A stretch of DNA of 64,000 bases. Origin: Candidatus Moraniibacteriota bacterium (lineage in GTDB: Bacteria > Patescibacteriota > Minisyncoccia > Moranbacterales > UBA1568). The notes below the pieces were generated by a model, which saw nothing but the letters and a program-made list of their open reading frames with translations, was not told where the DNA came from and searched no databases. Every line of letters begins with the position of its first letter. Position 1 is the first letter of the stretch. This document shows positions 32,504 through 63,823 of this stretch, piece after piece. The DNA is taken from assembly GCA_963743885.1 (NCBI GenBank), contig CAVURJ010000001.1, forward strand, positions 204,949 through 268,948, in the 5' to 3' direction. The translations under genes were made by a program, and so were the position numbers.

Positions 32504-32532
32504 TTGACGGAAAGGTTGGCCCGCGCTATACT
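32504..32532 (+). promoter_or_regulatory. sigma70-like promoter TTGACG-17-TATACT
   Basis: ttgacggaaaggttggcccgcgctatact. The TTG at 32504 listed as an ORF start is the -35 box. Confidence 0.5.
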
Positions 32533-32824: not shown

Positions 32825-33895
32825 GTGTTCCGCAGCTACTCCGCTTTCTCCATAGTCGCGTCGAGTGCCCTCCTGGTCTCCGCGAGTAACTTTTCGCAGG
32901 AAAACGGCGCCCCTGGGTTGCTTTCCGGCTACGCCGACGGCGCCCAAGCCGCCGAAGCGCCGGTCAAGCATCGTATCGCTGCCCAGGTCAGTCGCAAGGA
33001 CAACCTCTCTTTCGTGCCGCTCGCGAGCGCGACCAATGCCGTCGATCCGGAAGCCAAGGATGAGTCGACCCTCTTCGATATCCAGAGCCCCGCTTCGCTT
33101 GATCCGCTCGCTCTTTCGGCCTGGTCGGGCAGCTATCCGAAGGATGGTGAGGACAGCAATGATGTGAAGATCTATACCGTCGTCTCGGGCGATACCGTCT
33201 CGGGCGTCGCGACGAAGTTTGGGATTACGGTCAATACCATCCTCTGGGCGAACGACATCGATAATGTTGATTCTATCAAGCCGGGCGATCAGATATTCAT
33301 CCTGCCGGTGGCTGGCCTTTCGCATACCATATCATCTGGCGATACGATCGATAGTATCGCGACCAAGTACAAGGCGGACAAAGAAAAGATTATTTCCTTC
33401 AATGGCTTGCCGGCCAACGGTGAGCTGCGCGTGGGCGACAGCATCATGATTCCGGATGGCAAGAAGGATGAGCTGGTCCGGACGATCGCTCCGGCAGCTG
33501 GCCTCGAGCGGCGCCAGTATGCTACCTCGACCGGTGGTACCGCGTCCGATGTCTCTGGTTACAAGAAGCTCGACGGCAGAGCGGGCACAGGCCATCGCTT
33601 CCCGTTCGGCTGGTGTACGTGGTACGTGGCGCAGAAGCGTTATGTGCCGTGGGGCGGCAATGCTGGTACCTGGCTCTATCATGCCAAGTCTATGGGTTAC
33701 AAGACGGGCCGCGCTCCAGCTGTCGGTGCTATTATGGTGACGACCGAGGATCGTCGCTATGGTCATGTCGCGCTCGTTGAGAAGGTGAGTGGTGATACGA
33801 TCACTGTGAGTGAGATGAACTATGTGAAGTGGGGCAAGGTCAATCGCCGCACGCTTTCGGCTTCGAGCCGGGCAATCAAGGGATTCATTTACTAG
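32825..33895 (+). CDS. secreted peptidoglycan hydrolase with two LysM domains and a C-terminal CHAP domain
   Basis: LysM YTVVSGDTVSGVATKFGITVNTILWANDI and HTISSGDTIDSIATKY. CHAP GWCTWYVAQKR...GHVALVEKV. No in-frame ATG exists, so start is taken at GTG 32825, which gives a signal-peptide-like MFRSYSAFSIVASSALLVSA. The frame is open from 32504, so the start is uncertain. Confidence 0.65.
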   Translation: MFRSYSAFSIVASSALLVSASNFSQENGAPGLLSGYADGAQAAEAPVKHRIAAQVSRKDNLSFVPLASATNAVDPEAKDESTLFDIQSPASLDPLALSAWSGSYPKDGEDSNDVKIYTVVSGDTVSGVATKFGITVNTILWANDIDNVDSIKPGDQIFILPVAGLSHTISSGDTIDSIATKYKADKEKIISFNGLPANGELRVGDSIMIPDGKKDELVRTIAPAAGLERRQYATSTGGTASDVSGYKKLDGRAGTGHRFPFGWCTWYVAQKRYVPWGGNAGTWLYHAKSMGYKTGRAPAVGAIMVTTEDRRYGHVALVEKVSGDTITVSEMNYVKWGKVNRRTLSASSRAIKGFIY

Positions 33896-33937
33896 CTGGT
33901 AGCTTGTTAGCTTCCCTAGCTTCGTTAGCATGAAAGG

Positions 33938-33963
33938 ACAGGTTCGGAAGAGCCTGTTTTTTG
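33938..33963 (+). terminator. terminator hairpin acaggttcggaagagcctgttttttg (copy 1 of 2)
   Basis: An identical 26-mer is present at 34939-34964. Confidence 0.6.
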
Positions 33964-34014
33964 CTTGTAAAAAATGAAAAAATGTGCTATATTGGCAGTA
34001 TATCCAAGAAAAAT

Positions 34015-34284
34015 ATGGCTCAAATAAGCGCTCTCAATCAGTTTATCCAGTCTCGTCCGTACCTCGTATGGTATGTGAAGGATGTGGAGAATATTTCGGA
34101 GGATTCCGTTGTTGAACACGTGCTCAATTATGGCGATTGGAAGGATTTCCAAGAGTTGATTCGTATCATCGGCATCGAACGCGTCGCGCGGGACTTCCGG
34201 CAGCGGGCCGATGTGCCGCGGACGAATTATCGTCCAGAGATCAAAAATCTCTTCCAGCTGTATTTTGATCGCTATGCTGCATAA
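34015..34284 (+). CDS. hypothetical small protein, candidate cognate antitoxin of the AbiEii-like toxin
   Basis: Its stop overlaps the start of the nucleotidyltransferase gene. Promoter-like TTGCTT...TGCTATATT lies at 33961-33996. No recognisable domain. Confidence 0.35.
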   Translation: MAQISALNQFIQSRPYLVWYVKDVENISEDSVVEHVLNYGDWKDFQELIRIIGIERVARDFRQRADVPRTNYRPEIKNLFQLYFDRYAA

Positions 34285-34891
34285 AGAAATCCTCTCTCAG
34301 GCTCAAGAGAGGCTACTACCGCTTGTGAGGGGCGTTGGCCAGGGGTTTGCGCTCTGTGGTGGTACGTCAATCGCGCTTCATATCGGACATCGTGCGTCTA
34401 TTGATTTTGATTTGTTCACTTCTGAAGAGCTCAATATCAACACGCTTCGCCGGAAACTTTCTGAAGCCGACAAAAACTTCGCTGTTCTCGTGAAGAGTGA
34501 AGACGAATATACGGTAGCGGTGAAGGGCGTCAAGATTACTTTTCTTCGCTACCCGTTTCCATTTGAAGGATCTATGTGGCTAGATGACGTCATTCAAGTA
34601 CCAGATTTGCTTTCTTTGGCGGCGATGAAGGCGTATGCGCTTGGTCGGCGTTCAAAATGGAAGGACTACGTCGACCTATATTTCATACTTTCTAAATACC
34701 ATTCTTTACGGGAAGTGGCGGACAGAGCCGCCCAGATGTTTGGTAACGAATTCAACGAAAAGATTTTTCGGGCGGCGTTGGCGTATTTTGATGATATCGA
34801 TTATTCGGAAGCGGTCATCTTTCAGTCAGGATTTGAGGTTAGCGATGAAGCGGTTCGCGCGGCACTCAAAGACGTGAGTACAGGGGAGTAG
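34274..34891 (+). CDS. AbiEii/AbiGii-family nucleotidyltransferase toxin (DUF1814-like minimal NTase)
   Basis: NTase motif ALCGGTSIALHIGHRASIDFDLF. Start is taken at MLHKEILSQ; the ORF is open from 34211. Confidence 0.65.
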   Translation: MLHKEILSQAQERLLPLVRGVGQGFALCGGTSIALHIGHRASIDFDLFTSEELNINTLRRKLSEADKNFAVLVKSEDEYTVAVKGVKITFLRYPFPFEGSMWLDDVIQVPDLLSLAAMKAYALGRRSKWKDYVDLYFILSKYHSLREVADRAAQMFGNEFNEKIFRAALAYFDDIDYSEAVIFQSGFEVSDEAVRAALKDVSTGE

Positions 34892-34938
34892 CCATGAGGA
34901 GAAGATGTAAGAGGAAAGACGCAAGAGACAAGAGAAGA

Positions 34939-34964
34939 ACAGGTTCGGAAGAGCCTGTTTTTTG
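34939..34964 (+). terminator. terminator hairpin, identical copy 2 of acaggttcggaagagcctgttttttg
   Basis: Direct repeat of 33938-33963. The pair flanks the AbiE-like two-gene cassette. Confidence 0.6.
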
Positions 34965-34995
34965 ATTTATATAAGCCAAAATATAATAAATACCC

Positions 34996-35024
34996 TTGAC
35001 AAAAACGGGAAAAAGGAGTATGAT
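34996..35024 (+). promoter_or_regulatory. sigma70 consensus promoter TTGACA-17-TATGAT
   Basis: cccttgacaaaaacgggaaaaaggagtatgatgg. The TTG ORF start at 34996 is the -35 box. Confidence 0.55.
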
Positions 35025-35094
35025 GGTGGTAGAAGTGGTTTTGTTAACAATCTGGAATTTTCCAACTTTCCGGCCAATGGCCAAGGAGCGCATC

Positions 35095-35490
35095 ATGAAA
35101 AACGTCATCAGCATGCTCATTGCGGCTCTGGCGGCCGCTTTCATCGCTTTTCCTGTTTCGGCTGGTGAGTCACAGTACGATGGGCTCAGCAAGGAGGAAT
35201 ACGTCGCCAAATACCATCCGAATAACGCGTACTGCGGCGGCCTGTCGCAACGTCTCAGGCAGACGTATGGGAACAATATCCCGTCCGGCCAGCAGGAGAT
35301 GTTGGCAAAGTGCGCCAAGGCGAAGCAGCTTTATGCACAACAGCAAACGCTTCGAGTGCAGAAGGTGTCGGATCAGAAGGATCCGGGGTATGCTGCTAGG
35401 CTTGAAGAGGCTCGCAAGATTCAATGTGCATTGACTGAGGATTTTCGCAAAATGTACCATGTCAACTCCCGTGGATGTAAAGGGCTTTGA
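35095..35490 (+). CDS. small secreted protein with a signal peptide
   Basis: MKNVISMLIAALAAAFIAFPVSAGE signal peptide. RBS aaggag is upstream. Confidence 0.55.
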   Translation: MKNVISMLIAALAAAFIAFPVSAGESQYDGLSKEEYVAKYHPNNAYCGGLSQRLRQTYGNNIPSGQQEMLAKCAKAKQLYAQQQTLRVQKVSDQKDPGYAARLEEARKIQCALTEDFRKMYHVNSRGCKGL

Positions 35491-35677
35491 TCATGAGCGG
35501 TTGACGGGCATTCCAGGATGGAGTGCCCGTTTTTTCATGCGTCAAATACAGCGCGAGTATATGGACTGGTACTAGAGCACAGCTTGTCTGGAGGGGGCAG
35601 CTGTTTTTTTTATCGCTTCATGGTATACTGCATATCGTATGCATCCATTATGACTCCTTTTACGGAGCCATAGCTCT

Positions 35678-37669
35678 ATGGTACGGAAAACAGGCACCAA
35701 CACGACAGCATCCTTCGGCATGCGCGCGGCTGCGCTGTTCTTTTTCGTACTGCTTCTTTCTGGGATGGCGGGGACTGTCCAGGCCGCGCCATTTACTTTC
35801 GGGGACATGTTGACTGGCGGGGCAGATACTACATCGATGTTCAGTGATGTCGGCGACGGATTGCTGACAGCGTTCAAGTGGTTGATCTACGGCGTCTTCT
35901 CTTTCTGCGGGCTCCTCGTCGGTGCTGCTATGACCATTTTTGGTCTGCTTACCCGCCCAGAGCTCTTCCAGGTCTTGAATGGCAGTGGTATCTATCAGAT
36001 GTGGCAGTTCATCCGCGACTTCTTCAACCTCTTCTTCATCCTGACCCTGCTTTATATCGCCTTTACGATCATCTTCCAGGTGGCCAAGGATTACAAGAAG
36101 GCGCTGCTCAATCTGGTGATCATGGCGCTTCTCGTCAACTTCAGTTTTCCTATCTCGCGCTTCCTCATCGATGCGGGCAATGTGCCGATGTATTTCTTCG
36201 CTAGCCAGATCAGCGATCGCGGTCCGGCTGTGGGGATGGCTGCTATTTTTAGTTCGACCAAGCTGCAGAATATCCTTATTCGCGGCAAAGCGGGTGATAC
36301 CGAGGTGACGTTCGACGATGTCAAGGGGGGCGAGGTGACGCGCCTCATCGCGGCGACGGTCTTCCTCTTCCTGCTTGCTATCACGCTTCTCGTCCTTGCG
36401 GTCATGTTCATCATCCGCTTCGCTGTACTTGTCATTCTTGTCATCTTTTCTCCGGTCGGTTTTGCTGGGACAGTCATTCCTGGTATGCAGAAGTACGCGA
36501 GTCAGTGGTGGGAGAGTTTCACTCAGTATGTGGTCTACGGCCCGGCGGCCATGCTCATGGTGTTGGTCGCGATCCGGTTCTTTTCGGCATTGTCGGCAGA
36601 AAGCGGATTCGAAGTGTTGGTACAAGAATCGGCTAGCGCAACAAATGTCGGAGGTATGACTGGTTTCATATCTTCTGTCGCGACGTTTTCTATTCCAATC
36701 GTCGTGCTCTGGATCGCAATCGGGCTCTCGAACAAGATGTCGATGTTCGGTTCGGCCGCGGTCGTCGGTGCAGGACTTGGCGCTGTCGCTTGGACGAAGA
36801 AGAAGGCGATCGGCGGTGCCAAGTGGGCAGCATACAGGAATCCAGTCGCTCGTGGCGTAGGATCTGGCGTAAAGGATCGTTTCAATTCCACTTGGCTTGG
36901 CAAGACGCTGAAGAGTCCGAGTTGGACGGAGGCTGCTGCGAAGGGCGCCGTCCTTAAGGGCAAGGGCACCATCCAGGGCGAGCTTGATGGCCGGCATAAG
37001 AAGATGGTGGCTGATCGCGTGGCTGAGGATAAGAAGAATGGCGTCAGCAATTCGGCGCACAGAGAGAACCTCAAGACGATGTCCAATGATCCGGTCACAC
37101 GCGAGGCGTCTGCACTCGCGCTCGCGAGCGAGAAGGAGCTCCGCTCATCTGAAGACCTCTTGCTTGCGGCTCAGGTGCTCGCTAAGAACCCGGACGGGCT
37201 CATCAAGGCGATCGAAAATGCTCGGCCAGAGACGGTCGGCAAGATGGATCAGAAAACCTATGGCGAGATGCTCAAGTCTGTCTCTGCCAATCCTGATGCC
37301 GTGGCTGCGCTTGATGGCAGGATGAAGAAGGAGGGCAATATCAAAGTGAAGATGGATTATGAGATAGCTGCTGCTGGTGGCGATGGCCAGAAGATAGCTG
37401 GAGTCTATGAGAAGAATCTCGGTATGAACGCTGATGACTTTGCCAAGCAGGGCAGTATCCATGAAGCTATCGGGAAGGATGCTGGCCTGACGGAGTATCT
37501 GAAGAAGCGTGTCGGCGATGATAAGGATTTCTATCAGGAAGCGCTCAAGAAGATGAAGACAGGCGAGGGCCGCGAGAAGATGAGAACGCTTGTGGGAGCG
37601 GGTTCTAGCCAGGGATCGGCGGGCGTCCGTGACAAGATGAAACAGGTGAAGAGTGAAAATGCCCGATAG
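35678..37669 (+). CDS. VirB6/TrbL-like polytopic membrane protein of a T4SS-like system
   Basis: Signal peptide, then at least 6 TM helices, then a ~300-aa hydrophilic C-terminus. It sits in a locus with VirB4. Homology is inferred from architecture only. Confidence 0.45.
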   Translation: MVRKTGTNTTASFGMRAAALFFFVLLLSGMAGTVQAAPFTFGDMLTGGADTTSMFSDVGDGLLTAFKWLIYGVFSFCGLLVGAAMTIFGLLTRPELFQVLNGSGIYQMWQFIRDFFNLFFILTLLYIAFTIIFQVAKDYKKALLNLVIMALLVNFSFPISRFLIDAGNVPMYFFASQISDRGPAVGMAAIFSSTKLQNILIRGKAGDTEVTFDDVKGGEVTRLIAATVFLFLLAITLLVLAVMFIIRFAVLVILVIFSPVGFAGTVIPGMQKYASQWWESFTQYVVYGPAAMLMVLVAIRFFSALSAESGFEVLVQESASATNVGGMTGFISSVATFSIPIVVLWIAIGLSNKMSMFGSAAVVGAGLGAVAWTKKKAIGGAKWAAYRNPVARGVGSGVKDRFNSTWLGKTLKSPSWTEAAAKGAVLKGKGTIQGELDGRHKKMVADRVAEDKKNGVSNSAHRENLKTMSNDPVTREASALALASEKELRSSEDLLLAAQVLAKNPDGLIKAIENARPETVGKMDQKTYGEMLKSVSANPDAVAALDGRMKKEGNIKVKMDYEIAAAGGDGQKIAGVYEKNLGMNADDFAKQGSIHEAIGKDAGLTEYLKKRVGDDKDFYQEALKKMKTGEGREKMRTLVGAGSSQGSAGVRDKMKQVKSENAR

Positions 37670-38753
37670 GTACAGTATGGAAAACAAAATCAACAATCCG
37701 ATATACTATCCGCTGCTTGCCTCCGAGGAGATCAATGGTGGAGTGATGCCAGAGGAGGAATTTCGGAGCGTCTGGAGTGCTTTTGACAAACTACCTGACG
37801 ACAGGAAAAATATCCTGACGAGCGATGCGATGCCGCAGAAGATCAAGCTCGCGCAGCAGACATTTGGTCTCGATGATGGTGTGACGGAGGGTGTGAGCGT
37901 CCTCGTGCGCTGGTTGTTTTTCGGGCAGGTGGACCAGGGCGGATTCCAGCGTGGGCTCCAGTCGGTGCTTTCTGGTTTCAATCCCGGACAAATCGAGCAG
38001 ATACAAAAGTTTGTCCAGACGGGGATCTTGACGGTGAAGCCGCAGATGAAGGCTGTGTCTCATGATGATATATCGGCGGCGCTGGTGACGGAGAGTCTGC
38101 CGCTCCTCCAGGCCATCACCAAGTACGAGAAGCTTTCGCAGCAGGCAATCACAACGGAAAAGATTAAGCTCAAGGCATCGTCAGAGCTGGTACGCCCTTC
38201 GCTCGTCAACTGGATCAAGTGCTATCGCGATGAGCTCGGAGTTGGCTTCCATGATAGTGTGCAGCGTGGCACCTTTCTCTTTCGTTCTGAGAACTGCAAA
38301 CGGCTTACGCCGCCTGAGCGTGAGCGCGTCAACTTGATCCTCAAGTCTATTGAGGAGAGCTATCCGCTTCCAATCGATACGGTCAAATCCGAGGTTTTCT
38401 TTCCGGAATATGCGGCGCTTCGTCCGCAGGCGGAAACCTCGGCCGTGCAGTCTCGAGCGTCTTCTGAGGAAAAGAAAGACAAGAATCCTGCCCTTAGCGA
38501 GTCATACCTTGGAGGCCGACTCAGTATTTTCAAGCCTGTTAGGCAGGAGATTGCCGCTTCTGGGGACGAGAAAGCTATTAGTTTCTCATCAAACCATGTC
38601 TTTCCGGCCGAGAAGGAAAGTATCGCTGTTCCTGAGCCTCCGCAGGCGCCATTGAAACCCAAGCAGCCAACCCCTGCTCCGCGACCGCTTAATCCGTTCC
38701 GTATCAATCCTGTGAGTCAGGTCGATAAGAAGATAGACCGGTATTCCCAATGA
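37653..38753 (+). CDS. hypothetical protein in the T4SS-like locus
   Basis: Co-directional and overlaps neighbouring genes. No recognisable domain. Confidence 0.4.
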   Translation: MKMPDRYSMENKINNPIYYPLLASEEINGGVMPEEEFRSVWSAFDKLPDDRKNILTSDAMPQKIKLAQQTFGLDDGVTEGVSVLVRWLFFGQVDQGGFQRGLQSVLSGFNPGQIEQIQKFVQTGILTVKPQMKAVSHDDISAALVTESLPLLQAITKYEKLSQQAITTEKIKLKASSELVRPSLVNWIKCYRDELGVGFHDSVQRGTFLFRSENCKRLTPPERERVNLILKSIEESYPLPIDTVKSEVFFPEYAALRPQAETSAVQSRASSEEKKDKNPALSESYLGGRLSIFKPVRQEIAASGDEKAISFSSNHVFPAEKESIAVPEPPQAPLKPKQPTPAPRPLNPFRINPVSQVDKKIDRYSQ

Positions 38754-38768
38754 CGTTTTTCGCTCGTT

Positions 38769-39170
38769 ATGATGTTCAGTGTACCCCAATTCATCGATGT
38801 CGAGGACAAGATTGCCGGGCCGCTCACGTGGCGGCAGCTTCTTTGGATGATCGGCATGGGAGCCGTGCTACTCCTCATGTTCAGCGTCTTCGATGCTCAG
38901 CTTTTTTTCGTGATAGCGATACCGGTCGTCATGCTTTTCATCGCTCTCGCTTTTTATCGGCCCAATGGTATTCCGCTCGCGATCTTCATATTCCATTCTA
39001 TTCTGTTCCTTTTTCGTCCGAAGATAGCCGTATGGGAACGTCCGGTGCGTGTCCAGGCGATACCGAAAAAAGAGACGGCTGCCCCGGTCGTTCCAGTCGT
39101 TAGACAGCAGCCGCTGACTCAGGAGAGACTCTCGGAGTTGGCACGGATGGTGGATAGGCATAGCAAATGA
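38769..39170 (+). CDS. PrgI/VirB3-like small membrane protein
   Basis: FIDVEDKIAGPLTWRQLLWM followed by two TM helices, which is typical of Gram-positive T4SS PrgI-like proteins. Confidence 0.45.
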   Translation: MMFSVPQFIDVEDKIAGPLTWRQLLWMIGMGAVLLLMFSVFDAQLFFVIAIPVVMLFIALAFYRPNGIPLAIFIFHSILFLFRPKIAVWERPVRVQAIPKKETAAPVVPVVRQQPLTQERLSELARMVDRHSK

Positions 39171-39206
39171 TGGTAGAATGAATCGTATCGTTTTGGAAAC
39201 TTCGTA

Positions 39207-39887
39207 ATGGAAACGCTCAAAAGGAAAAATGGGTCAAACGGGTCCAGCACTCAGAAATATGTCGATGTTGAGGAAATCCGCGACGGGACTATCGTTTTGA
39301 AGAATGGCGCGCTTCGGGCCGTGTTGCTCGTTTCGTCTGTCAATTTCGATCTCAAGTCGACGCAGGAGCAGGATGCTATCATCGCGCAATATCAGAACTT
39401 CCTGAACTCGGTCGATTTTCCGGTACAGATTGTCGTAAGCTCCCGACGGTTCAATATAGATCCCTATATCGCGCTTCTTGAAGATCAGGAAAAGCAGCAG
39501 GAAAATGAACTTTTGCGTTTTCAGATATCGGAGTACCGCAATTTCGTCAGGAATCTGACTGAAGTATCGAATATCATGTCAAAATTCTTCTATGTCGTCG
39601 TACCGTTTGCTCCTTCCGAGGATCAGAAGAGCGGTCTTCTCGGAAAGCTGACAGGTATTTTCCAGCCGAAGAAGGCTTCGAAGCTGTCCGATATTTCGTT
39701 TGATACGTATCGGAGCCAGCTATTGCAGCGGGTGGACCATGTATCTGCATCGTTGTCTGCTGCCGGACTACGCGTGACGCAGCTCAGCACCGAGGATATC
39801 ATAGAATTGCTTTACAATGCTTACAATCCGTCGCTCTTTACGACGACGGTGGTAAGGAATGTGGAGTCGATGGAGCTCTCGAAGTGA
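39207..39887 (+). CDS. VirB4-like N-terminal domain (separate ORF or frameshifted 5' part of virB4)
   Basis: YVDVEEIRDGTIVLKNGALRAVLLVSSVNFDLKSTQEQDAIIAQYQNFLNSV resembles the N-domain of PrgJ/TcpF-type VirB4. Confidence 0.55.
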   Translation: METLKRKNGSNGSSTQKYVDVEEIRDGTIVLKNGALRAVLLVSSVNFDLKSTQEQDAIIAQYQNFLNSVDFPVQIVVSSRRFNIDPYIALLEDQEKQQENELLRFQISEYRNFVRNLTEVSNIMSKFFYVVVPFAPSEDQKSGLLGKLTGIFQPKKASKLSDISFDTYRSQLLQRVDHVSASLSAAGLRVTQLSTEDIIELLYNAYNPSLFTTTVVRNVESMELSK

Positions 39888-41781
39888 GAGTCGGAATAAT
39901 CAGAAATGCAATGAATACATGTCTTCGGAAATAATCCTTGAAGAAAAGAGCAATACCAAGAAAGTCAGCCCTCATGGGGGCGGTGTTTTTGCTGGTGCTC
40001 GTTCTGCTGGCATGTCTGAAGGCGAGCGTCTTTATGAGCAGGGCATCGCGACAATTCGGGACCTTATCGCGCCGCCTGCCGTCCGCCTGACGCCCAATGT
40101 CATGCAGGTGGGCGATGTCCTTTCCAGGACCTATTTTGTCGTGGCGTATCCGAGGTATCTTTCGACCAATTGGTTCTCGCCGATCATCAATATGGACTTC
40201 GCGATGGATACCGCGCTTTTTATCCATCCGATTGATACGGCGGAGATATTGAAGAATCTCCGGAAATCGGCTACTCAGGTGCAATCGCAGATCCATATCG
40301 AGGCTGAAGATGGGAAGATCCGCGACCCCGTGCTCGAGACAGCGCTCGAGGATATCGAGGGGCTGCGTGATCGTTTGCAGCAGGGGGTCGAGAAATTCTT
40401 CCGTTTCGGTCTTTATATCACGCTGTATGGCGCTGATGATCAGGATTTGAACGAAAGATGTCGTACGGTAGAATCCGTTCTTGAGGCTCAGCTCGTGTAT
40501 GTGAAGCCGGCCGTATTGCGCATGGATCAGGGTTTTGCAGCGACACGCCCGCTTGCGACCGATACGCTTGATGTAGCCAATAATCTCAATACGGAGCCGC
40601 TTTCGACGACGTTTCCGTTTGTCTCATCTGATCTCTCTTCGAATGATGGCATCCTTTATGGCATCAATCGGCACAACAATTCCTTGGTACTCTTCGATCG
40701 TTTCAAGCTGGAGAATGCTAATATGGTGGTCTTCGCGAAGTCTGGTGCAGGTAAGAGCTACACTATCAAGCTTGAGGTGCTCCGTTCCATGATGTTCGGT
40801 ACGAGTGTCATCATCATCGACCCGGAAAACGAGTATAAGCATCTCTGTGAGGCGGTTGGTGGCAGCTTTATGAAGATATCGCTCGATTCCGATGTTCATC
40901 TCAATCCGTTCGATCTTCCTAAGGGTTCTGAAGACGAAGAAAATCTCGGTATTTTCCGCAATACTGTTGCGAATATCGTCGGGTTGCTCCATCTCATGCT
41001 CGGTTCGGTGACGCCTGAGGAAGATTCCATTCTCGACCAGGCGATTCGAGAGACGTATGCTATTCGCGATATTACCGAGACTTCGGACTTTTCTTCTCTT
41101 TCCACGTCTTCATTTCCGACGATGTCCGATTTGTATGCTGTCCTTGAGAATATGGAGGGGGCAGAATCGCTTGCAGCGCGTCTCGAGCGCTATACGGAGG
41201 GTATTTTCGGAGGATTTCTCAATAAGCAGACGAGTATCGATCTCGGCAGCCAGCTTGTCGTCTTCAATATTCGTGATCTGGAGGATGAACTCCGGCCGAT
41301 TGCCATGTATATCGTGCTCCAATTCATCTGGAAGGAGATTCGGGCGAATATGAAGCGTCGGTTGGTCGTGGTCGATGAGGCCTGGATCATGATGCAGCAC
41401 GAGGATGCGGCCGCTTTCCTCTTCGGTATCGCCAAGCGCTGCCGGAAATATTATACCGGTCTGACGACGATCACGCAGGATATCGCTGATTTTATGTCAT
41501 CACGTCATGGCAAACCGATTATCACGAACTCGTCGCTCCAGCTCCTGCTTCGGCAGTCGCCGTCTTCGATTGATCTGATCGCCGAGACGTTCTACCTGAC
41601 CGATCATGAGAAGTTTCTCCTGCTCGAATCGAACGTCGGTGAAGGTATTTTCTTTGCGGGCACCAAGCATGCCGCCATCAAGGTCGTCGCTTCCTATAGT
41701 GAAGATCAGCTCATTACGTCCGATCCGCGTCAGCTGCTCGAGATTGAGGAGGCTAAACGTGAATTAAGTAACGCATCCTGA
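39859..41781 (+). CDS. virB4: VirB4/TraE/PrgJ-family T4SS ATPase
   Basis: Walker A VVFAKSGAGKSYTIKL, Walker B RRLVVVDEAWIMM, and IAPPAVRLTPNVMQVGDVLSRTYFVVAYPRY. Confidence 0.8.
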   Translation: MWSRWSSRSESRNNQKCNEYMSSEIILEEKSNTKKVSPHGGGVFAGARSAGMSEGERLYEQGIATIRDLIAPPAVRLTPNVMQVGDVLSRTYFVVAYPRYLSTNWFSPIINMDFAMDTALFIHPIDTAEILKNLRKSATQVQSQIHIEAEDGKIRDPVLETALEDIEGLRDRLQQGVEKFFRFGLYITLYGADDQDLNERCRTVESVLEAQLVYVKPAVLRMDQGFAATRPLATDTLDVANNLNTEPLSTTFPFVSSDLSSNDGILYGINRHNNSLVLFDRFKLENANMVVFAKSGAGKSYTIKLEVLRSMMFGTSVIIIDPENEYKHLCEAVGGSFMKISLDSDVHLNPFDLPKGSEDEENLGIFRNTVANIVGLLHLMLGSVTPEEDSILDQAIRETYAIRDITETSDFSSLSTSSFPTMSDLYAVLENMEGAESLAARLERYTEGIFGGFLNKQTSIDLGSQLVVFNIRDLEDELRPIAMYIVLQFIWKEIRANMKRRLVVVDEAWIMMQHEDAAAFLFGIAKRCRKYYTGLTTITQDIADFMSSRHGKPIITNSSLQLLLRQSPSSIDLIAETFYLTDHEKFLLLESNVGEGIFFAGTKHAAIKVVASYSEDQLITSDPRQLLEIEEAKRELSNAS

Positions 41782-60679: not shown

Positions 60680-60717
<38 letters not shown>

Positions 60718-60842
60718 CTTATCTCTTATGTCTTACCTCTTGCTTCTTCTTTTAATCTTACCTCATACCCCATCTCCAATCCCGTGGTATACTAAAAACA
60801 TATCATCATAGCTAAGAAATTTTTGGTTACGAACTTTCTTTT

Positions 60843-60949
60843 CTGTCATCCCCGCGAAGGCGGGGATCCAGAAGAATGCCTTATTATGAGGAACTTGGAT
60901 TCCCGCCTTCGCGGGAATGACAACTACAAACGTAGTTTCGTAATTGAAG
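60843..60949. repeat. two palindromic elements of the GGATCC...ATGACA family plus an AGTTTCGTAATTGAA tail
   Basis: ctgtcatccccgcgaaggcggggatccag and ggattcccgccttcgcgggaatgacaactacaaacgtagtttcgtaattgaa. Perfect stems with covarying sequence. Confidence 0.55.
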
Positions 60950-60966
60950 CAGGAAAACAATAGAAT

Positions 60967-61248
60967 ATGGAAAGCCTATCCTTCGTGGCAGTCGTGCATG
61001 CTGGATCAATCAGCGATGCGCCGAGAGTAGTGACGCTTTTCGGTAACGTCCTTGACTTTCTGTTGTCGATTGCCGGCATCATTGGTATAATTGCGTTGGT
61101 AGTCGCCGGCAGTCTCTATCTTACTGCGGGCGGGGACGTGCGCCGCATCGCGCTTGCCAAGCGAGCTGCTGTTGCGGCAATTGTTGGTGTTGCTGTTGTT
61201 TTTAGCGCGTGGATTATCATCGGTCAGATAGTGGCATTCTTCGTTTAG
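60967..61248 (+). CDS. T4SS pilin-like protein (TrbC/VirB2-like, CPR type)
   Basis: Two TM helices flanking YLTAGGDVRRIALAKRA. Confidence 0.55.
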   Translation: MESLSFVAVVHAGSISDAPRVVTLFGNVLDFLLSIAGIIGIIALVVAGSLYLTAGGDVRRIALAKRAAVAAIVGVAVVFSAWIIIGQIVAFFV

Positions 61249-61291
61249 AAGATGTCCGATAACATACAAAACGAGAAAGGAGGTGAGAACT

Positions 61292-61660
61292 ATGAATTAT
61301 TTCAAGAACGCTCTCTACACGGCTTTCTCAGTCGCTTTGGCCGCCGTTCCGGCAGTCGCGAGCGCTCAGTGGGGCATTGGCAAAAGCAATGCAGCCGCTT
61401 CCGGACTGCCTGATGATACCATCTACGGGATCATCAATAGGACTATGAACTGGCTCCTCATGATCCTCGGTTTCATCGGCATCATCGGCTTCGTCATCGC
61501 TGGCATCCTGTATCTCACCGCCGCCGGAGACGAAGATCAGATTGGCAAGGCGAAGACTGCCATGATGTATTCCATCATCGGCATCATCGTCGCTCTCATG
61601 GGTTTCGTCATCATCAGAGCTGTCGAAAGCTGGCTCTCTGCAGGCGCATTCACTTTCTAG
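61292..61660 (+). CDS. T4SS pilin-like protein, paralog 2
   Basis: Signal peptide MNYFKNALYTAFSVALAAVPAVASA, then GILYLTAAGDEDQIGKAKTAMMYSIIGIIVAL. RBS aaggagg is upstream. Confidence 0.6.
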   Translation: MNYFKNALYTAFSVALAAVPAVASAQWGIGKSNAAASGLPDDTIYGIINRTMNWLLMILGFIGIIGFVIAGILYLTAAGDEDQIGKAKTAMMYSIIGIIVALMGFVIIRAVESWLSAGAFTF

Positions 61661-61736
61661 TACAGGAAGTCTCTGTGAAAGCTCTCCCGCCCTTTCGGGC
61701 GGGATTGTTTTTTGTCTTAGAAAGGGGTATCCTGAA
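61415..61736 (+). repeat. 322-bp segment identical to 61927-62248 (3' two-thirds of the pilin gene plus its terminator)
   Basis: Exact identity at a 512-bp offset. The N-terminal-encoding parts of the two pilin genes are about 80% identical. Confidence 0.85.
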
Positions 61737-61803
61737 GAGAGGAATCTTAATGGGGTGTTTCGACACGCCGGATAAAATACAAACCGGAAAGGAGGTGAGA
61801 AGT

Positions 61804-62172
61804 ATGAACTTCATCAAGAACGCCATGTACGCTGCTTTTGCAGCTGCTTTGGCTGTCACTCCATCCGTAGCGGGTGCACAGTGGGCCGCTGGAAAGGCCA
61901 ACGCGGCCGCTTCCGGACTCCCGAACGATACCATCTACGGGATCATCAATAGGACTATGAACTGGCTCCTCATGATCCTCGGTTTCATCGGCATCATCGG
62001 CTTCGTCATCGCTGGCATCCTGTATCTCACCGCCGCCGGAGACGAAGATCAGATTGGCAAGGCGAAGACTGCCATGATGTATTCCATCATCGGCATCATC
62101 GTCGCTCTCATGGGTTTCGTCATCATCAGAGCTGTCGAAAGCTGGCTCTCTGCAGGCGCATTCACTTTCTAG
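61804..62172 (+). CDS. T4SS pilin-like protein, paralog 3 (C-terminal 2/3 identical to paralog 2)
   Basis: MNFIKNAMYAAFAAALAVTPSVAGA signal peptide. RBS aaggagg is upstream. Confidence 0.6.
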   Translation: MNFIKNAMYAAFAAALAVTPSVAGAQWAAGKANAAASGLPNDTIYGIINRTMNWLLMILGFIGIIGFVIAGILYLTAAGDEDQIGKAKTAMMYSIIGIIVALMGFVIIRAVESWLSAGAFTF

Positions 62173-62282
62173 TACAGGAAGTCTCTGTGAAAGCTCTCCC
62201 GCCCTTTCGGGCGGGATTGTTTTTTGTCTTAGAAAGGGGTATCCTGAAAGAAATGGGGGTAGGTATATTTATATAAAAAATA

Positions 62283-63113
62283 ATGTCTATGGCGCGCGCT
62301 TTTCGCATGTCGGCATTTTTGGCAGTTTTGTCGCTAGCGGGTTTTCCGTTGTCGTTGGTATCCGCTCAGCAGCCAGGAGGGACTTCTGGGGAAGATTGTA
62401 CGGGTATGGGGACAGGGTATTTCTGTACCCCGATGCTTACATGCAATGGTACCAATGAGATAAAATCAGTGAGCGGATGTTCCAAATCTGAAGATGCATG
62501 CTGCGGACCAAAAGCAAGCGGAGGCACCGACTCGGGATCTTCATCGAGCGGTGGTTCATCTTCGTCATCCTCTGGTGCTTCTAGTGGAGGGGTGGCTTGC
62601 ACGGTTGCTCCGTATGGGAAAGTCGGCATATGTGGCGGTTCGACGTGCGCCGGTATCGCGGCGGCTGACGCTGTATGTGGTGCGTGGCCGGCGAATAAAT
62701 GTTGTTATATCGCTAGCTCCGGAGGCGCTTCTTCAGGAGGCGCTCTTGGTGGCGGAGCTTCCAGCTCCGGAGGAGGTGCCGCCGCCGCAGGAGTCGATTG
62801 TCCTGGCGGCATCATCAAGGGTGGCGTGTGTTTTCCTGGTGGTACCGGGCTGCCTGATCCGGTGGGCGGGATAGGCGAAGTGCTGATGAACCTTATGGAT
62901 TGGTTGCTCGGTATCTTCGGCATGCTCGCTGTCATCGCGTTTGTCATTTCGGGCATTCAGTATCTTCTTGCAGCCGGTGACGAACGTCAGGCCGAGACGG
63001 CGAAGCGAAATATGAAGTATTCCATCATCGGTATCGCGGTGGCGCTTTCGGCATATATCATCATCGACGCGATCAGCTGCATGTTCGGTTCCGGAGGATT
63101 CTTTATCTGTTGA
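62283..63113 (+). CDS. pilin-like protein with a long Cys/Gly/Ser-rich N-terminal extension
   Basis: Signal peptide, about 180 aa rich in C, G and S, then a pilin domain FGMLAVIAFVISGIQYLLAAGDERQAETAKRNMKYSIIGIAVAL. Confidence 0.55.
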   Translation: MSMARAFRMSAFLAVLSLAGFPLSLVSAQQPGGTSGEDCTGMGTGYFCTPMLTCNGTNEIKSVSGCSKSEDACCGPKASGGTDSGSSSSGGSSSSSSGASSGGVACTVAPYGKVGICGGSTCAGIAAADAVCGAWPANKCCYIASSGGASSGGALGGGASSSGGGAAAAGVDCPGGIIKGGVCFPGGTGLPDPVGGIGEVLMNLMDWLLGIFGMLAVIAFVISGIQYLLAAGDERQAETAKRNMKYSIIGIAVALSAYIIIDAISCMFGSGGFFIC

Positions 63114-63126
63114 ATCTCGGATTCTT

Positions 63127-63756
63127 ATGGCAATAGCGCGATATAGCCGCATCGTACTCGTCTTTGCTGCAGGGCTCCTTTTCCTCGGGATGGTTCTGTC
63201 GGCTATGCCGGTTGGCGCGCAGATATCCGGCAGCTCGACGACGATTAGTTTCGGTAAGCCAATAACAAGCGAGTCTATCGAGGATGCGACGAGTACTGTG
63301 CTTTCGACGATACGTGCCGTCATCGTCGTTCTCGCGGTCGTTTTCATCGTTATCGGCGCCGTGTTGTATGTTACTTCCGCTGGCAATGAGGACCGTATGA
63401 GGACCGCCAAGGGCGCGATTACTGCCGCTATGGTCGGTCTTGCGCTCGGTCTGGCAGCCCCGTCTTTCCTTAAGGAAATCGGCGGAGCGCTCGGCTGGAG
63501 CGGTGCTATTGTAAGCGACCCAAGCGTTCGGACGCTTTCCGATATCGCGCGGAGCACACTCAACTTTTTCCTCTCTATCGTAGGTATCCTTTCGGTTATC
63601 ATGCTTGTCGTCGGCGGGGCGGCATATCTTACTGCTGCCGGAGATGAGAGCCGGGCTGAGACAGCCAAGAAGATTGTCAAATGGGCGATTGTCGGTATCG
63701 CGGTCACATTCGCTTCGCTCACTATTGTCACCCAGGTGGCGATGTTGCTCGTCTAG
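63127..63756 (+). CDS. protein with two tandem pilin-like domains
   Basis: YVTSAGNEDRMRTAKGAI and YLTAAGDESRAETAKKIV, each flanked by TM helices. Confidence 0.55.
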   Translation: MAIARYSRIVLVFAAGLLFLGMVLSAMPVGAQISGSSTTISFGKPITSESIEDATSTVLSTIRAVIVVLAVVFIVIGAVLYVTSAGNEDRMRTAKGAITAAMVGLALGLAAPSFLKEIGGALGWSGAIVSDPSVRTLSDIARSTLNFFLSIVGILSVIMLVVGGAAYLTAAGDESRAETAKKIVKWAIVGIAVTFASLTIVTQVAMLLV

Positions 63757-63780
63757 GAGCTGTCGGTTTGTAGAGAAAAA

Positions 63781-63823
63781 AGAAAGCGGGCGGCTACGAT
63801 GTTCCGTAGCGCCCGCTTGTCGT
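63781..63823. terminator. bidirectional terminator hairpin
   Basis: agaaagcgggcggctacgatgttccgtagcgcccgcttgtcg. Confidence 0.55.

What the first reader, a model, noticed from the sequence alone, without database searches (positions are those of the whole stretch)
60967..63756. Array of five pilin-like genes, including a 322-bp perfect duplication and a Cys/Gly/Ser-rich pilin fusion
Five consecutive genes encode TrbC/VirB2-like pilin domains, with two TM helices around a YLTAAGDE-type motif.

Paralogs 2 and 3 share an identical 322-bp block (61415-61736 and 61927-62248) covering the C-terminal two-thirds of the gene plus the terminator. Their signal-peptide regions have diverged, which suggests recent gene conversion or duplication that could generate N-terminal variability.

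One member carries a ~180-aa Cys/Gly/Ser-rich extension. Another has two pilin domains in tandem.
Basis: seen in the sequence. Interest (0 to 1): 0.55.

Follow-up and report, generated by a model that had tools for sequence, protein, structure and literature searches.

The report
Patescibacterial type IV secretion pilin array
Five adjacent small genes in the genome of an ultra-small, host-dependent bacterium (Candidatus Moranbacteria) encode VirB2-like "pilin" proteins of its type IV secretion system; such arrays are already described in these bacteria, and this one adds a freshly gene-converted duplicate and a member with cysteine-rich display modules.

Summary
Five + strand genes (60967-63756) all pass Pfam's cut-off for PF18895 T4SS_pilin. 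The blocks 61415-61736 and 61927-62248 are 322/322 identical. Gene 4 carries a 160-aa Gly/Ser/Cys-rich N-terminal extension, and gene 5 has two pilin domains.

The window is from a Ca. Moranbacteria (Patescibacteria) genome, with a monoderm-type T4SS cluster (VirB1/3/4/6-like) about 19 kb upstream. VirB2-like arrays of 2-11 genes are already published for Patescibacteria (PMC12102498, PMC10633639), so the kind is known.

What I add:
- **Conserved layout.** In 20 of 21 related loci long enough to judge, the array keeps the order p1-type, p2-type (1-3 copies), p4-type, then the fused double pilin.
- **Gene conversion.** p3 is a lineage-specific p2 paralog. Its 5' 123 nt are anciently diverged (dS about 1.5, dN/dS about 0.15), while its 3' 322 nt, terminator included, are identical to p2. 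This is a conversion tract from p2 to p3, not a simple duplication. The mature proteins differ at 4 residues, so it homogenises rather than diversifies.
- **Cysteine modules.** The p4 extension holds two six-Cys modules (C..GxC..C..C..CC) whose number ranges from 0 to 5 among the p4-type pilins examined. They weakly resemble CLIP/beta-defensin frameworks.

Pilus formation itself remains inferred.

The parts
60680..60717 (.). (CTTT)9.5 perfect tetranucleotide microsatellite, just after the typA terminator and about 65 nt upstream of the array's promoter-like box
   Evidence: TRF score 76, the strongest simple repeat in the window; sequence. A role in expression is not tested.
60781..60794 (+). 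Conserved extended -10 promoter-like box CCCGTGGTATACTA upstream of p1
   Evidence: Identical motif at the same place in L001 and L002; a similar motif (CCGTGCTAGACTAAAAG) in L005. The consensus scan did not report it. Assignment as a promoter is an inference.
60844..60922 (+). REP-like inverted-repeat pair inserted in the p1 5' leader. It folds into a -54.5 kcal/mol hairpin and is absent from L001/L002.
   Evidence: I1; third copy at 1190-1215; z = -9.4; short leader in relatives.
60967..61248 (+). p1: 93-aa pilin with a short 12-aa leader (..VVHA|GS). This is the class closest to classical TrbC/VirB2.
   Evidence: PF18895 41.5 bits and PF04956 25.2 bits. Of 10 orthologs tested, 5 pass the PF04956 cut-off. 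Orthologs are present in all related loci.
61292..61660 (+). p2: 122-aa pilin, the probable major subunit and the donor of the conversion tract. It has a perfect SD (AAAGGAGGTGA), a predicted signal peptide ending ASA|QW, and two helices flanking YLTAAGDE.
   Evidence: AF2 helices 44-76 and 81-117; 5' part 90% and core 88% identical to the L001 ortholog.
61415..61736 (+). Repeat copy 1: 322 nt covering the 3' two-thirds of p2, 76 nt after the stop codon and the terminator
   Evidence: exact identity; terminator stem 61685-61704 followed by a T-run.
61804..62172 (+). p3: lineage-specific p2 paralog and recipient of the conversion. Its first 123 nt are anciently diverged and the rest is identical to p2.
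   Evidence: It carries the same SD as p2. P0002 is in the protein database from the same 652,564-bp contig.
61927..62248 (+). Repeat copy 2: 322 nt identical to 61415-61736, including a second terminator (stem 62197-62216)
   Evidence: An independent Logan contig begins 30 nt before the end of this copy.
62283..63113 (+). p4: 276-aa pilin with a signal peptide (aa 1-28), a 160-aa Gly/Ser/Cys-rich extension, and a C-terminal pilin domain (aa about 189-276) whose tail holds a Cys pair (C266, C276)
   Evidence: PF18895 55.4 bits, aa 195-264. There is no SD; an AT-rich box lies directly upstream.
62397..62504 (+). p4 six-Cys module 1 (aa 39-74; C-x8-C-x5-C-x11-C-x6-CC)
   Evidence: (six invariant Cys plus the Gly of GxC in 24 modules).
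62598..62705 (+). p4 six-Cys module 2 (aa 106-141; C-x10-C-x4-C-x9-C-x7-CC)
   Evidence: AF2 pLDDT 78, four short strands; Cys positions 106, 117, 122, 132, 140, 141.
62799..62837 (+). p4 conserved two-Cys element DCPGGIIKGGVCF (aa 173-185) immediately before the pilin domain. Orthologs that lack the six-Cys modules still have it.
   Evidence: for example L001 g4 SCPNGVIRGGVCFP and P0121 SCPNGTIRGGVCFP.
63127..63756 (+). p5: 209-aa fused double pilin (domain A aa about 49-119, nt 63271-63483; domain B aa about 130-209, nt 63514-63753). It closes the array in 20 of 21 relatives long enough to judge.
   Evidence: domains A and B each pair with their own counterpart in every locus, so the fusion is ancient.
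63784..63818 (.). GC-rich hairpin after p5 (AAGCGGGCGGCTACG..CGTAGCGCCCGCTT), a probable bidirectional terminator facing a convergent minus-strand gene
   Evidence: Sequence. The scan did not report it because the T tract is weak. One search shows a minus-strand gene immediately downstream.
32504..41781 (+). Associated T4SS cluster about 19 kb upstream. It holds a LysM-CHAP hydrolase (32504-33895), a large membrane protein with a weak pLS20_p028 match (35678-37669), a PrgI/VirB3-like protein (38769-39170), a TrsD/VirB4-N-like protein (39207-39887) and a VirB4-type ATPase (39859-41781).

Best explanation
The region is the chromosomal VirB2-like (Pfam PF18895) pilin gene array of a Candidatus Moranbacteria (Patescibacteria) genome. 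It most likely supplies the subunits of the extracellular filament or conduit of the monoderm-type (MPF_FATA-like) type IV secretion system encoded about 19 kb upstream.

The array is not a set of interchangeable variants. It consists of conserved paralog classes kept in a fixed order across the clade.
- p1 is a short-leader pilin and the most TrbC/VirB2-like class.
- p2 is the likely major subunit. It is the most conserved class, has a perfect ribosome-binding site and has its own terminator.
- p4 is a pilin whose N-terminus, which lies outside the cell in the membrane topology and would be on the outer face of a pilus, carries a variable number of small disulfide-rich six-Cys modules on Gly/Ser linkers. 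It is probably an adhesin or recognition subunit.
- p5 is an ancient covalent fusion of two pilin domains.

In this genome p2 has a tandem paralog, p3. A recent gene-conversion tract of at least 322 bp copied the p2 3' two-thirds plus terminator onto p3. The two genes now specify almost the same mature pilin (4 differences) behind different signal peptides. The practical effect is homogenisation and higher gene dosage of the major subunit, not diversification.

Shown here: family membership, array conservation, the mosaic identity pattern, the direction of conversion and the module architecture. Inferred: signal-peptide cleavage, the roles of the classes, pilus assembly and a host-interaction function.
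For: Family: all five genes exceed the PF18895 cut-off. The p1 class reaches PF04956 TrbC/VirB2, with 5 of 10 orthologs above the cut-off. p2 and p5 score 36 and 39.9 bits (cut-off 40) on NCBIfam NF045849, the mycoplasma-ICE 'pilin-like conjugal transfer protein'. AF2 predicts a two-helix hairpin at aa 44-76 and 81-117 with pLDDT 82-89.

Context: the window holds VirB4, PrgI/VirB3-like, TrsD-like and LysM-CHAP genes. The homologs that carry a source name and most related genome records are titled Ca. Moranbacteria or Moraniibacteriota.

Literature: 441 VirB2-like arrays of 2-11 genes were reported in 383 CPR assemblies (PMC12102498). The pilin series is essential in Southlakia epibionticum (PMC10633639; review PMC12857230).

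Fixed order: 21 of the related loci are long enough to judge, and 20 of them show p1-type, then p2-type (1-3 copies), then p4-type, then the double-domain type; in L005 a p4-type gene sits between two double-domain genes.

Conversion:
- p2 versus p3 is 69.9% identical over the first 123 coding nt, with pS 0.64, dS about 1.46 and dN/dS about 0.15.
- It is 100% identical over the next 246 coding nt and over 76 non-coding nt.
- p2 versus its L001 ortholog is 73%, 83% and 44% identical in the same three segments.
- The p2 5' part and the shared core are about equally close to L001 (90% and 88%), whereas the p3 5' part is at most 80% identical to anything sampled. The donor is therefore p2.

Reality of the tandem:
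- A unique 37-nt junction (61737-61773) follows copy 1.
- A separate Logan assembly (ERR12035942) has a contig that starts at window position 62219, which is 30 nt before the end of copy 2. A k=31 de Bruijn graph would break at exactly that point (k=31 is from my own knowledge of Logan).
- p2-type tandem pairs with mosaic high-identity blocks recur in L005 and L019.

Major-subunit argument: only p2 and p3 have the SD AAAGGAGGTGA, and each is followed by a strong terminator. p2 core residues are invariant across 53 homologs.

Modules: 25 modules from 10 pilins align with six invariant Cys plus GxC. The count varies from 0 in L001/L002/L005 to 2 here, 3 in L004 and up to 5 in P0128.
Against: No filament has been shown for any PF18895 protein, and the literature calls the pilus a possibility.

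Structure and sequence searches against solved pilins were uninformative. Foldseek against PDB gave a best E of 1.1, with the Aeropyrum conjugative pilus at rank 28 and E 5. The PDB sequence search found nothing relevant. hhalign of the p2 profile against R388 TrwL or F TraA gave probabilities below 2%.

The window's own p1 is just under the PF04956 cut-off. The array is 19 kb from virB4 and has its own conserved neighbourhood (after typA), so the functional link to the T4SS is by family and not by operon.

The assignment of p2 as major subunit rests on expression signals and conservation only. I had no reads, so the tandem duplication is supported only indirectly. The junction sequence was not found in JGI metagenome contigs.
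Confidence: 0.72

Rival explanations
1. The p3 5' end was imported, and p3 is not an old paralog. Under this reading the whole p2 unit was duplicated very recently. The 5' 150 nt of one copy were then replaced by homologous recombination with DNA from a diverged Moranbacteria lineage, for instance through natural transformation, which is common in Patescibacteria.
For: The p3 5' part is about equally distant (70-80%) from every sampled p2, including its neighbour. The closest relatives (L001-L003, L023-L025) have no second p2 copy but a different gene at position 3. An old duplication would therefore require loss in those relatives. Competence is documented in the phylum.
Against: No donor-like allele was found among 120 homologs or 25 loci; the best match is 31 of 41 aa. 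p2 tandem pairs at various stages of divergence and mosaicism exist in other members of the clade (L005, L017-L022). That pattern fits recurrent duplication with concerted evolution. Both scenarios are recombination events with the same breakpoint at 61414/61415.
Confidence: 0.15
2. The 512-bp tandem duplication is an assembly artefact. For example, two co-existing strain alleles of p2 may have been stitched in series, so the genome would really have four pilin genes.
For: No reads were available. Exact repeats longer than the k-mer size are classic sites of misassembly. p2 and p3 proteins occur in the database only from this one 652,564-bp contig.
Against: - p3 is preceded by the terminator copy plus a unique 37-nt spacer, not by the p1-p2 junction. 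A strain allele of p2 would carry the p1-p2 junction upstream.
- An independent Logan assembly breaks exactly k-1 nt inside the end of copy 2. Reads therefore support two different continuations after the repeat.
- The p3 5' part is far too diverged (dS about 1.5) for a co-existing strain that is otherwise identical over 322 nt.
- Tandem p2 pairs exist in other Moranbacteria assemblies.
Confidence: 0.05
3. The proteins are not polymerising pilins. They would be membrane-resident two-helix hairpins that act as anchors displaying N-terminal domains on the cell surface, or as integral parts of the T4SS channel, without forming an extracellular filament.
For: Monoderm conjugative T4SSs generally lack pili. 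No filament has been demonstrated. p4-type proteins look like extracellular domains on a C-terminal membrane anchor. A covalent double pilin and bulky N-terminal extensions might be hard to fit in a VirB2-type helical lattice. Fold and profile comparisons with solved pilins are not significant.
Against: The p1 class passes the TrbC/VirB2 Pfam cut-off. The loop motif and both helices are extremely conserved in p2, with 17 invariant columns, which is more than a simple anchor would need. Several specialised paralog classes kept in a fixed order resemble major and minor pilin sets. In known conjugative pili both termini face outward, so N-terminal fusions are sterically conceivable (established knowledge of F and T pilus structures; not tested here).
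Confidence: 0.22
4. The array is an antigenic- or host-range-variation system. Paralogs would serve as cassettes that are recombined into an expression site, as in Neisseria pilE/pilS or the Anaplasma and Bartonella virB2 paralogs, and the 322-bp tract would be one such switching event.
For: A conversion tract is demonstrably present. Mosaic blocks occur in L005 and L019. The published discussion invokes variation for CPR arrays. A perfect (CTTT)9.5 repeat lies upstream of the array.
Against: - Every gene has its own start and export signal, and the paralog classes are orthologous and kept in order across the clade. There are no silent cassettes.
- The conversion made the products nearly identical.
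- The diverged segment is under purifying selection and is mostly signal peptide.
- Only one such tract exists in this array.
Confidence: 0.08

Closest known systems
VirB2-like pilin arrays of Patescibacteria T4SS (Southlakia epibionticum ML1 pilin series; TM7x 'Sec-secreted array'; 441 arrays in 383 CPR assemblies, PMC12102498, PMC10633639)
   Same: Same Pfam family (PF18895/PF04956), same phylum, tandem arrays of 2-11 small pilin genes, and association with a monoderm-type T4SS that lacks an obvious relaxase.
   Different: The published arrays are described as sequence-divergent, with a mean identity of 25% and a maximum of 54%. They lie inside the T4SS cluster in Southlakia. Here the array sits 19 kb away, after typA, and p2/p3 are 89% identical with a 322-bp perfect tract. 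The array also includes a fused double pilin and a Cys-module pilin. I found no mention of gene conversion, Cys-rich fusions or double-domain pilins in that paper.
TrbC/VirB2 major pilins of Gram-negative conjugative and effector T4SS (Pfam PF04956; for example R388 TrwL, Agrobacterium VirB2)
   Same: A small exported protein with two hydrophobic helices and a short polar loop. The p1 class passes the PF04956 cut-off in 5 of 10 orthologs.
   Different: The window's p1 is just below the cut-off (25.2 against 27.9 bits), and p2-p5 match only PF18895. hhalign of the p2 profile against TrwL was not significant. The host is a monoderm. Cyclisation and lipid binding are unknown.
Mbov_0395 / MMCAP2_0565 family pilin-like conjugal transfer protein of mycoplasma ICEs (NCBIfam NF045849)
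   Same: This is the best curated NCBIfam match for p2 (36 bits), p5 (39.9 bits) and p4 (24.7 bits). In both systems the VirB4 is of the 'Mbov_0397' mycoplasma type or TrsD-like. This fits the proposed MPF_FATA ancestry.
   Different: All scores are below the family cut-off of 40. The mycoplasma protein is a single gene in a mobile element, not a chromosomal multi-paralog array.
virB2 paralog clusters of Bartonella and Anaplasma phagocytophilum
   Same: Tandem amplification of T4SS pilin genes in a host-dependent bacterium, as cited in PMC12102498.
   Different: Those are thought to provide surface variation among similar paralogs. Here the classes are anciently distinct, kept in a fixed order and orthologous across species.
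Gene conversion and concerted evolution of duplicated bacterial genes (for example tufA/tufB; Neisseria pilE/pilS for pilins)
   Same: A sharp-edged tract of perfect identity between otherwise diverged paralogs.
   Different: Both copies are complete expressed-type genes in tandem. The outcome is homogenisation, as with tuf, and not the generation of variants, as with pilS.
CLIP domain (PF12032/PF18322) and beta-defensin six-cysteine frameworks
   Same: About 40 residues with six Cys ending in CC, and a conserved G-x-C at the second Cys. The module profile retrieves genuine CLIP-trypsin proteins from 1.84 billion representatives (P0144, P0149, P0154). Of 24 modules, 2 hit CLIP weakly (E 0.0045) and 1 hits Defensin_beta_2 (E 0.033).
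   Different: No module reaches a Pfam cut-off. Foldseek against PDB found nothing. Disulfide connectivity is unknown. The resemblance could be convergence of a Cys/Gly-dominated pattern. CLIP domains are arthropod protease pro-domains.

Membership tests
Pfam PF18895 T4SS_pilin | Whole-protein score at or above the gathering cut-off (26.6 bits) | tested here: met
   p1 41.5, p2 41.1, p3 41.6, p4 55.4 and p5 77.5 bits, with two stretches in p5.
Pfam PF04956 TrbC/VirB2 pilin | Whole-protein score at or above the gathering cut-off (27.9 bits) | tested here: inconclusive
   The window's p1 scores 25.2 bits (E 1.9e-5), just below the cut-off, and p2-p5 have no hit. Orthologs of p1 score 37.7, 31.4, 29.9, 29.1 and 28.1 bits, so 5 of 10 pass.
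VirB2-type conjugative pilin (functional class) | Signal peptide followed by two hydrophobic helices joined by a short polar loop | tested here: met
   AF2 predicts helices at aa 44-76 and 81-117 with pLDDT 82-89. An AxA|Q motif ends the N-terminal hydrophobic segment. Cleavage itself is inferred.
VirB2-type conjugative pilin (functional class) | Detectable similarity to a pilin of solved structure | tested here: not met
   Foldseek against PDB gave a best E of 1.1, with the A. pernix conjugative pilus 8dfu at rank 28 and E 5. The PDB profile search found nothing. hhalign against R388 TrwL and F TraA gave probabilities of 0.6% and 2%. A two-helix hairpin gives these tests little power.
VirB2-type conjugative pilin (functional class) | Encoded together with VirB4 and other mating-pair-formation genes | tested here: met
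   VirB4 (39859-41781), PrgI/VirB3-like, TrsD-like and LysM-CHAP genes are in the same window, about 19 kb away and not in the same operon.
VirB2-type conjugative pilin (functional class) | Polymerises into an extracellular, lipid-containing helical filament | not testable with these tools
   This needs cryo-EM, cryo-ET or biochemistry. The literature treats it as a possibility only.
NCBIfam NF045849 Mbov_0395 family pilin-like conjugal transfer protein | Score at or above the curated cut-off (40 bits) | tested here: not met
   p5 39.9, p2 36 and p4 24.7 bits; p1 has no hit. This is a near miss, so the proteins are related to the family but not members of the equivalog.
Patescibacterial VirB2-like pilin array (as defined in PMC12102498) | At least two PF18895/PF04956 genes in tandem, or separated by one gene, in a CPR genome that has VirB4 | tested here: met
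   Five consecutive genes, VirB4 in the window, and relatives whose named records are mostly titled Ca. Moranbacteria.
Gene-conversion tract between paralogs | A sharp mosaic: a segment far more similar between paralogs than between orthologs, flanked by a segment at least as diverged as the orthologs, and including non-coding sequence | tested here: met
   p2 versus p3 is 100% identical over 322 nt, where orthologs are 83% and 44% identical. The adjacent 123 nt are 69.9% identical, against 73.2% for the ortholog.
CLIP domain (PF12032 / PF18322) | Pfam score above the cut-off, and the three-disulfide clip fold | tested here: inconclusive

The most novel reading that the evidence does not exclude
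In Moranbacteria the T4SS filament is a heteropolymer built from fixed pilin classes. The polymerisation core of these classes is kept identical among paralogs by gene conversion, as seen in the window's p2/p3 pair and in the p2 and p5 pairs of L019. The outward-facing N-termini, in contrast, are exchanged or expanded as CLIP/defensin-like six-Cys module arrays (0-5 modules among the p4-type pilins examined). Together this would be a modular 'constant core, variable display' system that sets host specificity of an epibiotic bacterium, and the first T4SS pilin family that carries its own adhesin domains.
Probability: 0.2. Interest if true: 0.6.

Novelty: new member of a known kind. Interest (0 to 1): 0.36.

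Why it matters
Patescibacteria make up a large share of bacterial diversity and live attached to other microbes. Their T4SS and its pilin series are essential in the one species tested, yet what they do is unknown.

This locus does not change that picture. It gives a well-resolved example from a different class (Moranbacteria) and points to concrete handles for experiments:
- a likely major subunit (p2/p3) to target for filament detection;
- a conserved set of paralog classes that suggests specialised structural roles rather than mere variation;
- a fused double pilin;
- a pilin with rapidly varying disulfide-rich modules, which is a natural candidate for the host-recognition element.

The conversion tract also shows that array members can be far more similar than the published 54% maximum. 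Identity-based surveys may therefore under-report recent duplication.

Tried and rejected
**Searches that led nowhere**
- Foldseek of the p2 model against PDB gave no significant hit, because a helical hairpin is non-specific.
- The PDB sequence and profile search found nothing relevant.
- hhalign of the p2 alignment against R388 TrwL and F TraA, both fetched from PLSDB, was not significant. RP4 accession BN000925 is not in the collection.
- A homology search with the p4 N-terminal extension alone scored 8000 candidates, none with E <= 0.01. The full-length p4 search did not even return p4 itself, because low-complexity words swamped the candidate list.
- An exact search for the copy-1/spacer junction in JGI metagenome contigs gave 0 hits. 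Looking up p3 (P0002) by exact product found it not on record.
- Rfam on 60400-64000 found nothing near the gathering scores.
- I looked for att-like direct repeats between the integrase side (30.4-32.6 kb) and the tRNA side (46.05-47.05 kb) of the T4SS cluster. None of 12 nt or more was found, and there is no clear GC step, so I do not call it an integrated element.
- I looked for a donor of the p3 5' end among 120 homologs and 25 loci and found none.

**Readings considered and rejected**
- The 165-aa ORF start (61675) for p3 reads through the p2 terminator and is not the real start.
- The long antisense ORFs 62733-63731(-) and 63103-63966(-) overlap p4/p5 and have no support.
- JGI names such as 'MnhB subunit' or 'mechanosensitive channel' for homologs are generic transmembrane mis-annotations.

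Full report

Yes. The + strand between 60967 and 63756 holds five consecutive ORFs.
- For genes 2 and 3 the ORF list's GTG starts (61283 and 61675) are upstream artefacts.
- The real starts are the ATGs at 61292 and 61804. Each lies 6 nt behind AAAGGAGGTGA and matches the 122-aa database proteins P0001 and P0002.
- All five products exceed Pfam's gathering score for PF18895 T4SS_pilin. p5 has two matched stretches.
- An HMM built from the six domains finds no other copy in any frame of the 64-kb window.

The blocks 61415-61736 and 61927-62248 are 322/322 identical, and that is the maximal exact run. Each block comprises the last 246 coding nt, 76 nt after the stop codon and an intrinsic terminator.

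The p4 extension (aa 29-188) is 51% Gly+Ser+Cys and holds 14 Cys.

**2. Where does the window come from, and what surrounds the array?**

- The homologs of p2 that carry a source name are called pilin or hypothetical protein of Ca. Moranbacteria, Moraniibacteriota or Minisyncoccota. The exact proteins come from one 652,564-bp contig.
- A scan of species-representative genomes returned 17 loci. Twelve records are titled Moranbacteria or Moraniibacteriota; four are titled 'uncultured Bdellovibrionales' and one Minisyncoccota.
- The window also carries a T4SS cluster at 32.5-41.8 kb. It holds a LysM-CHAP hydrolase, a PrgI/VirB3-like protein, a TrsD/VirB4-N-like protein, a VirB4-type ATPase and a large membrane protein with a weak pLS20_p028 match.
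- The array itself directly follows typA/bipA. The same neighbourhood (methyltransferase, solute-binding protein, typA, pilins) is seen in L005, and typA also precedes the array in L001/L002.

**3. What is already known?**

PMC12102498 searched 3,035 Patescibacteria genomes with PF04956 and PF18895. It reports 441 VirB2-like arrays of 2-11 genes in 383 assemblies, with a mean within-array identity of 25% and a maximum of 54%.

Wang et al. [quoted passage not shown] A 2025 review calls a pilus in these monoderms an 'intriguing possibility', and a perspective states that the role of the T4SS is unknown.

I found no structural work on such a pilus. I also found no mention of gene conversion, Cys-rich fusions or double-domain pilins in PMC12102498. 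The kind of feature is therefore known, and the details below are additions.

**4. The array is a conserved set of paralog classes.**

Twenty-one of these loci are long enough to judge, and 20 show the same order; in L005 a p4-type gene sits between two double-domain genes:
- often a long 'p0' gene;
- then a p1-type gene of about 90-110 aa;
- then one to three p2-type genes;
- then one or two p4-type genes;
- last, one or two double-domain genes.

Domains A and B of p5 each pair with their own counterpart in every locus, so the fusion is ancient.

The p1 class is the one closest to classical pilins. The window's p1 scores 25.2 bits on PF04956 (cut-off 27.9), and 5 of 10 orthologs pass. The best curated NCBIfam match for p2, p4 and p5 is the mycoplasma-ICE pilin-like protein NF045849, just under its cut-off. 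That agrees with the proposed monoderm (MPF_FATA) ancestry.

Fixed, orthologous classes argue for specialised structural roles, as in major and minor pilin sets, rather than interchangeable variants.

**5. The 322-bp block is a gene-conversion tract.**

Identity in three segments of the gene unit, from the alignment with the orthologs of L001-L004:

| Segment | p2 vs p3 | p2 vs L001 ortholog |
|---|---|---|
| First 123 coding nt | 69.9% | 73.2% |
| Next 246 coding nt | 100% | 83.3% |
| 76 nt after the stop | 100% | 44% |

- In the 5' segment the synonymous sites of p2 and p3 are near saturation (pS 0.64, dS about 1.46), with dN/dS about 0.15. For p2 versus its L001 ortholog, dS is 0.73 in that segment and 0.50 in the 3' segment.
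- A recent duplication cannot give that 5' divergence, and an old duplication cannot give 322 perfect matches (log10 P about -38.7). A recombination event with a breakpoint at 61414/61415 is required.
- The p2 5' segment and the shared core are similarly close to L001 (90% and 88%), while the p3 5' segment is at most 80% identical to anything sampled. p2 was therefore the donor and p3 the recipient.
- The closest relatives lack a second p2 and have a different p4-like gene at position 3. The alternative that the p3 5' end was imported from an unsampled lineage cannot be excluded, and I rate it 0.15.
- After the predicted AxA|QW cleavage the mature proteins differ at four residues.

**6. Is the tandem real?**

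I had no reads. The indirect evidence favours a real tandem:
- Copy 1 is followed by a unique 37-nt spacer and a p2-like 5' UTR, not by the p1-p2 junction.
- A Logan contig from ERR12035942 carries p5 at positions 909-1538, so it starts at window position 62219. That is 30 nt before the end of copy 2, where a k=31 graph would branch (k is from my own knowledge).
- The first gene call on that contig ends on the TGA that the window has at 62456-62458, in an open frame, so the offset holds.
- p2-type tandem pairs exist in other assemblies. The pair in L005 is a 79% mosaic. The pair in L019 is 92% identical, with identical 5' UTR plus signal peptide and identical 3' end plus terminator.
- L019 also has two double pilins that are 96% identical over 447 nt but have different Cys-rich N-terminal extensions.

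**7. Expression signals**

- Only p2 and p3 have a perfect Shine-Dalgarno sequence, and each has its own strong terminator. Together with extreme conservation (17 invariant columns in 53 homologs), this suggests the major subunit. This is an inference.
- p1 is preceded by a conserved extended -10-like box at 60781-60794.
- p4 has no SD and has an AT-rich box directly upstream.
- p5 starts 14 nt after p4.

**8. The p4 extension**

It contains two modules of about 40 aa with six Cys. A shorter two-Cys element (DCPGGIIKGGVCF) is retained even by orthologs without modules.

Twenty-five modules from ten pilins align with six invariant Cys and a conserved GxC. The module count is 0 in L001, L002 and L005, 2 here, 3 in L004, and up to 5 in P0128.

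AF2 gives a small four-strand model with pLDDT 78. Foldseek against PDB found nothing, and the other structure libraries were unavailable.

A profile search of 1.84 billion representative proteins found only 22 hits at E <= 1e-3. These were pilin fusions, a few multi-module peptidase or lysozyme proteins, and genuine arthropod-type CLIP-trypsin proteins. Individually, 2 of 24 modules hit Pfam CLIP weakly and 1 hits Defensin_beta_2.

I therefore call the framework CLIP/beta-defensin-like and leave homology open. In the membrane topology expected for VirB2-type proteins, and on the surface of known conjugative pili, the N-terminus faces outward (established knowledge). A display or adhesin role is therefore plausible but untested.

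**9. Limits**

- Structure and profile comparisons with solved pilins were not significant.
- No PF18895 filament has been shown.
- The link to the T4SS is by family and co-occurrence, not by operon.

The rival that these are membrane anchors or channel parts without a filament keeps about 0.2.

**10. Verdict**

This is a new member of a known kind (Patescibacterial VirB2-like pilin arrays). It has some undescribed variant-level features: a conversion tract, a fixed order of classes, an ancient double pilin and six-Cys module display. Interest is moderate to low.

Noticed in passing
window 60680-60717 (and 60711-60741): A perfect (CTTT)9.5 microsatellite, the strongest simple repeat in the window, is followed by TCTTATC-like heptamers. 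It lies between the typA terminator and the promoter-like box of the pilin array. In L001 and L002 the equivalent upstream region is made of GATAAG/GATGAG-type short repeats and differs by a 35-bp indel between two otherwise near-identical strains. This may be a length-variable control region.
   Followed up: partly
window 60844-60922; third copy 1190-1215 (-): A pair of inverted REP-like elements (GTCATYCCCGCGAAGGCGGGRATCCA) sits in the p1 leader and folds to -54.5 kcal/mol (z = -9.4). The insertion of about 135 nt is absent from L001/L002. It creates spurious small ORFs on both strands ('..IPAKAGIQ..' / '..IPAFAGMT..'). Its effect on p1 expression is unknown.
   Followed up: partly
window 60497-60538 and 60586-60627: The last 42 nt of typA, including the stop codon, are repeated 89 nt downstream at 76% identity. 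The downstream copy (..AGRKK*) resembles the L001 typA end (..RKK*) more than the current end (..SARKK*) does. A small insertion appears to have brought a replacement 3' end.
   Followed up: no
window 31292-46246: The T4SS cluster is bordered by a tyrosine recombinase (31292-32275, -) and tRNA-Leu/tRNA-Pro (46161-46968). It contains an AbiEii toxin-like gene (34211-34891) and several large ORFs with no Pfam hit (35678-38753 and 43267-46008, the latter 913 aa). I found no att-like direct repeat of 12 nt or more and no clear GC step, so nothing indicates a mobile element.
   Followed up: partly
window 62249-62285: p4 lacks a Shine-Dalgarno sequence and is preceded directly by TATATTTATATAAAAAATA-ATG. 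This could be an internal promoter giving a leaderless or very short-leader p4-p5 transcript downstream of the p3 terminator.
   Followed up: no
Logan contig from ERR12035942 (no DNA available); corresponds to window 62219 onward: In this independent assembly p4 is called as two pieces: an out-of-frame 79-aa edge gene and a 95-aa C-terminal fragment starting at the GTG at 62826. This is either a gene-caller effect of the low-complexity Gly/Ser region or a real difference in the p4 extension in that sample.
   Followed up: partly
L019 6035-6844 and 7690-8685: Two double-domain pilins in another Moranbacteria genome share a two-domain core that is 96% identical at the nucleotide level but have different Cys-rich N-terminal extensions. 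This is the clearest case of 'same core, different N-terminus' in the clade.
   Followed up: partly
window 62733-63731 (-) and 63103-63966 (-): Long antisense ORFs (332 and 287 aa) overlap p4 and p5. They have no family support and are by-products of composition. A naive longest-ORF caller prefers them to the real genes.
   Followed up: yes
L006 3058-4125, L013 3047-4132, L014 2520-3560, L020 1261-3663: Many relatives have one or two extra 'p0' genes (230-425 aa) upstream of p1, with the pilin domain near the N-terminus and a long C-terminal extension. The window, L001/L002 and L005 lack this class.
   Followed up: no
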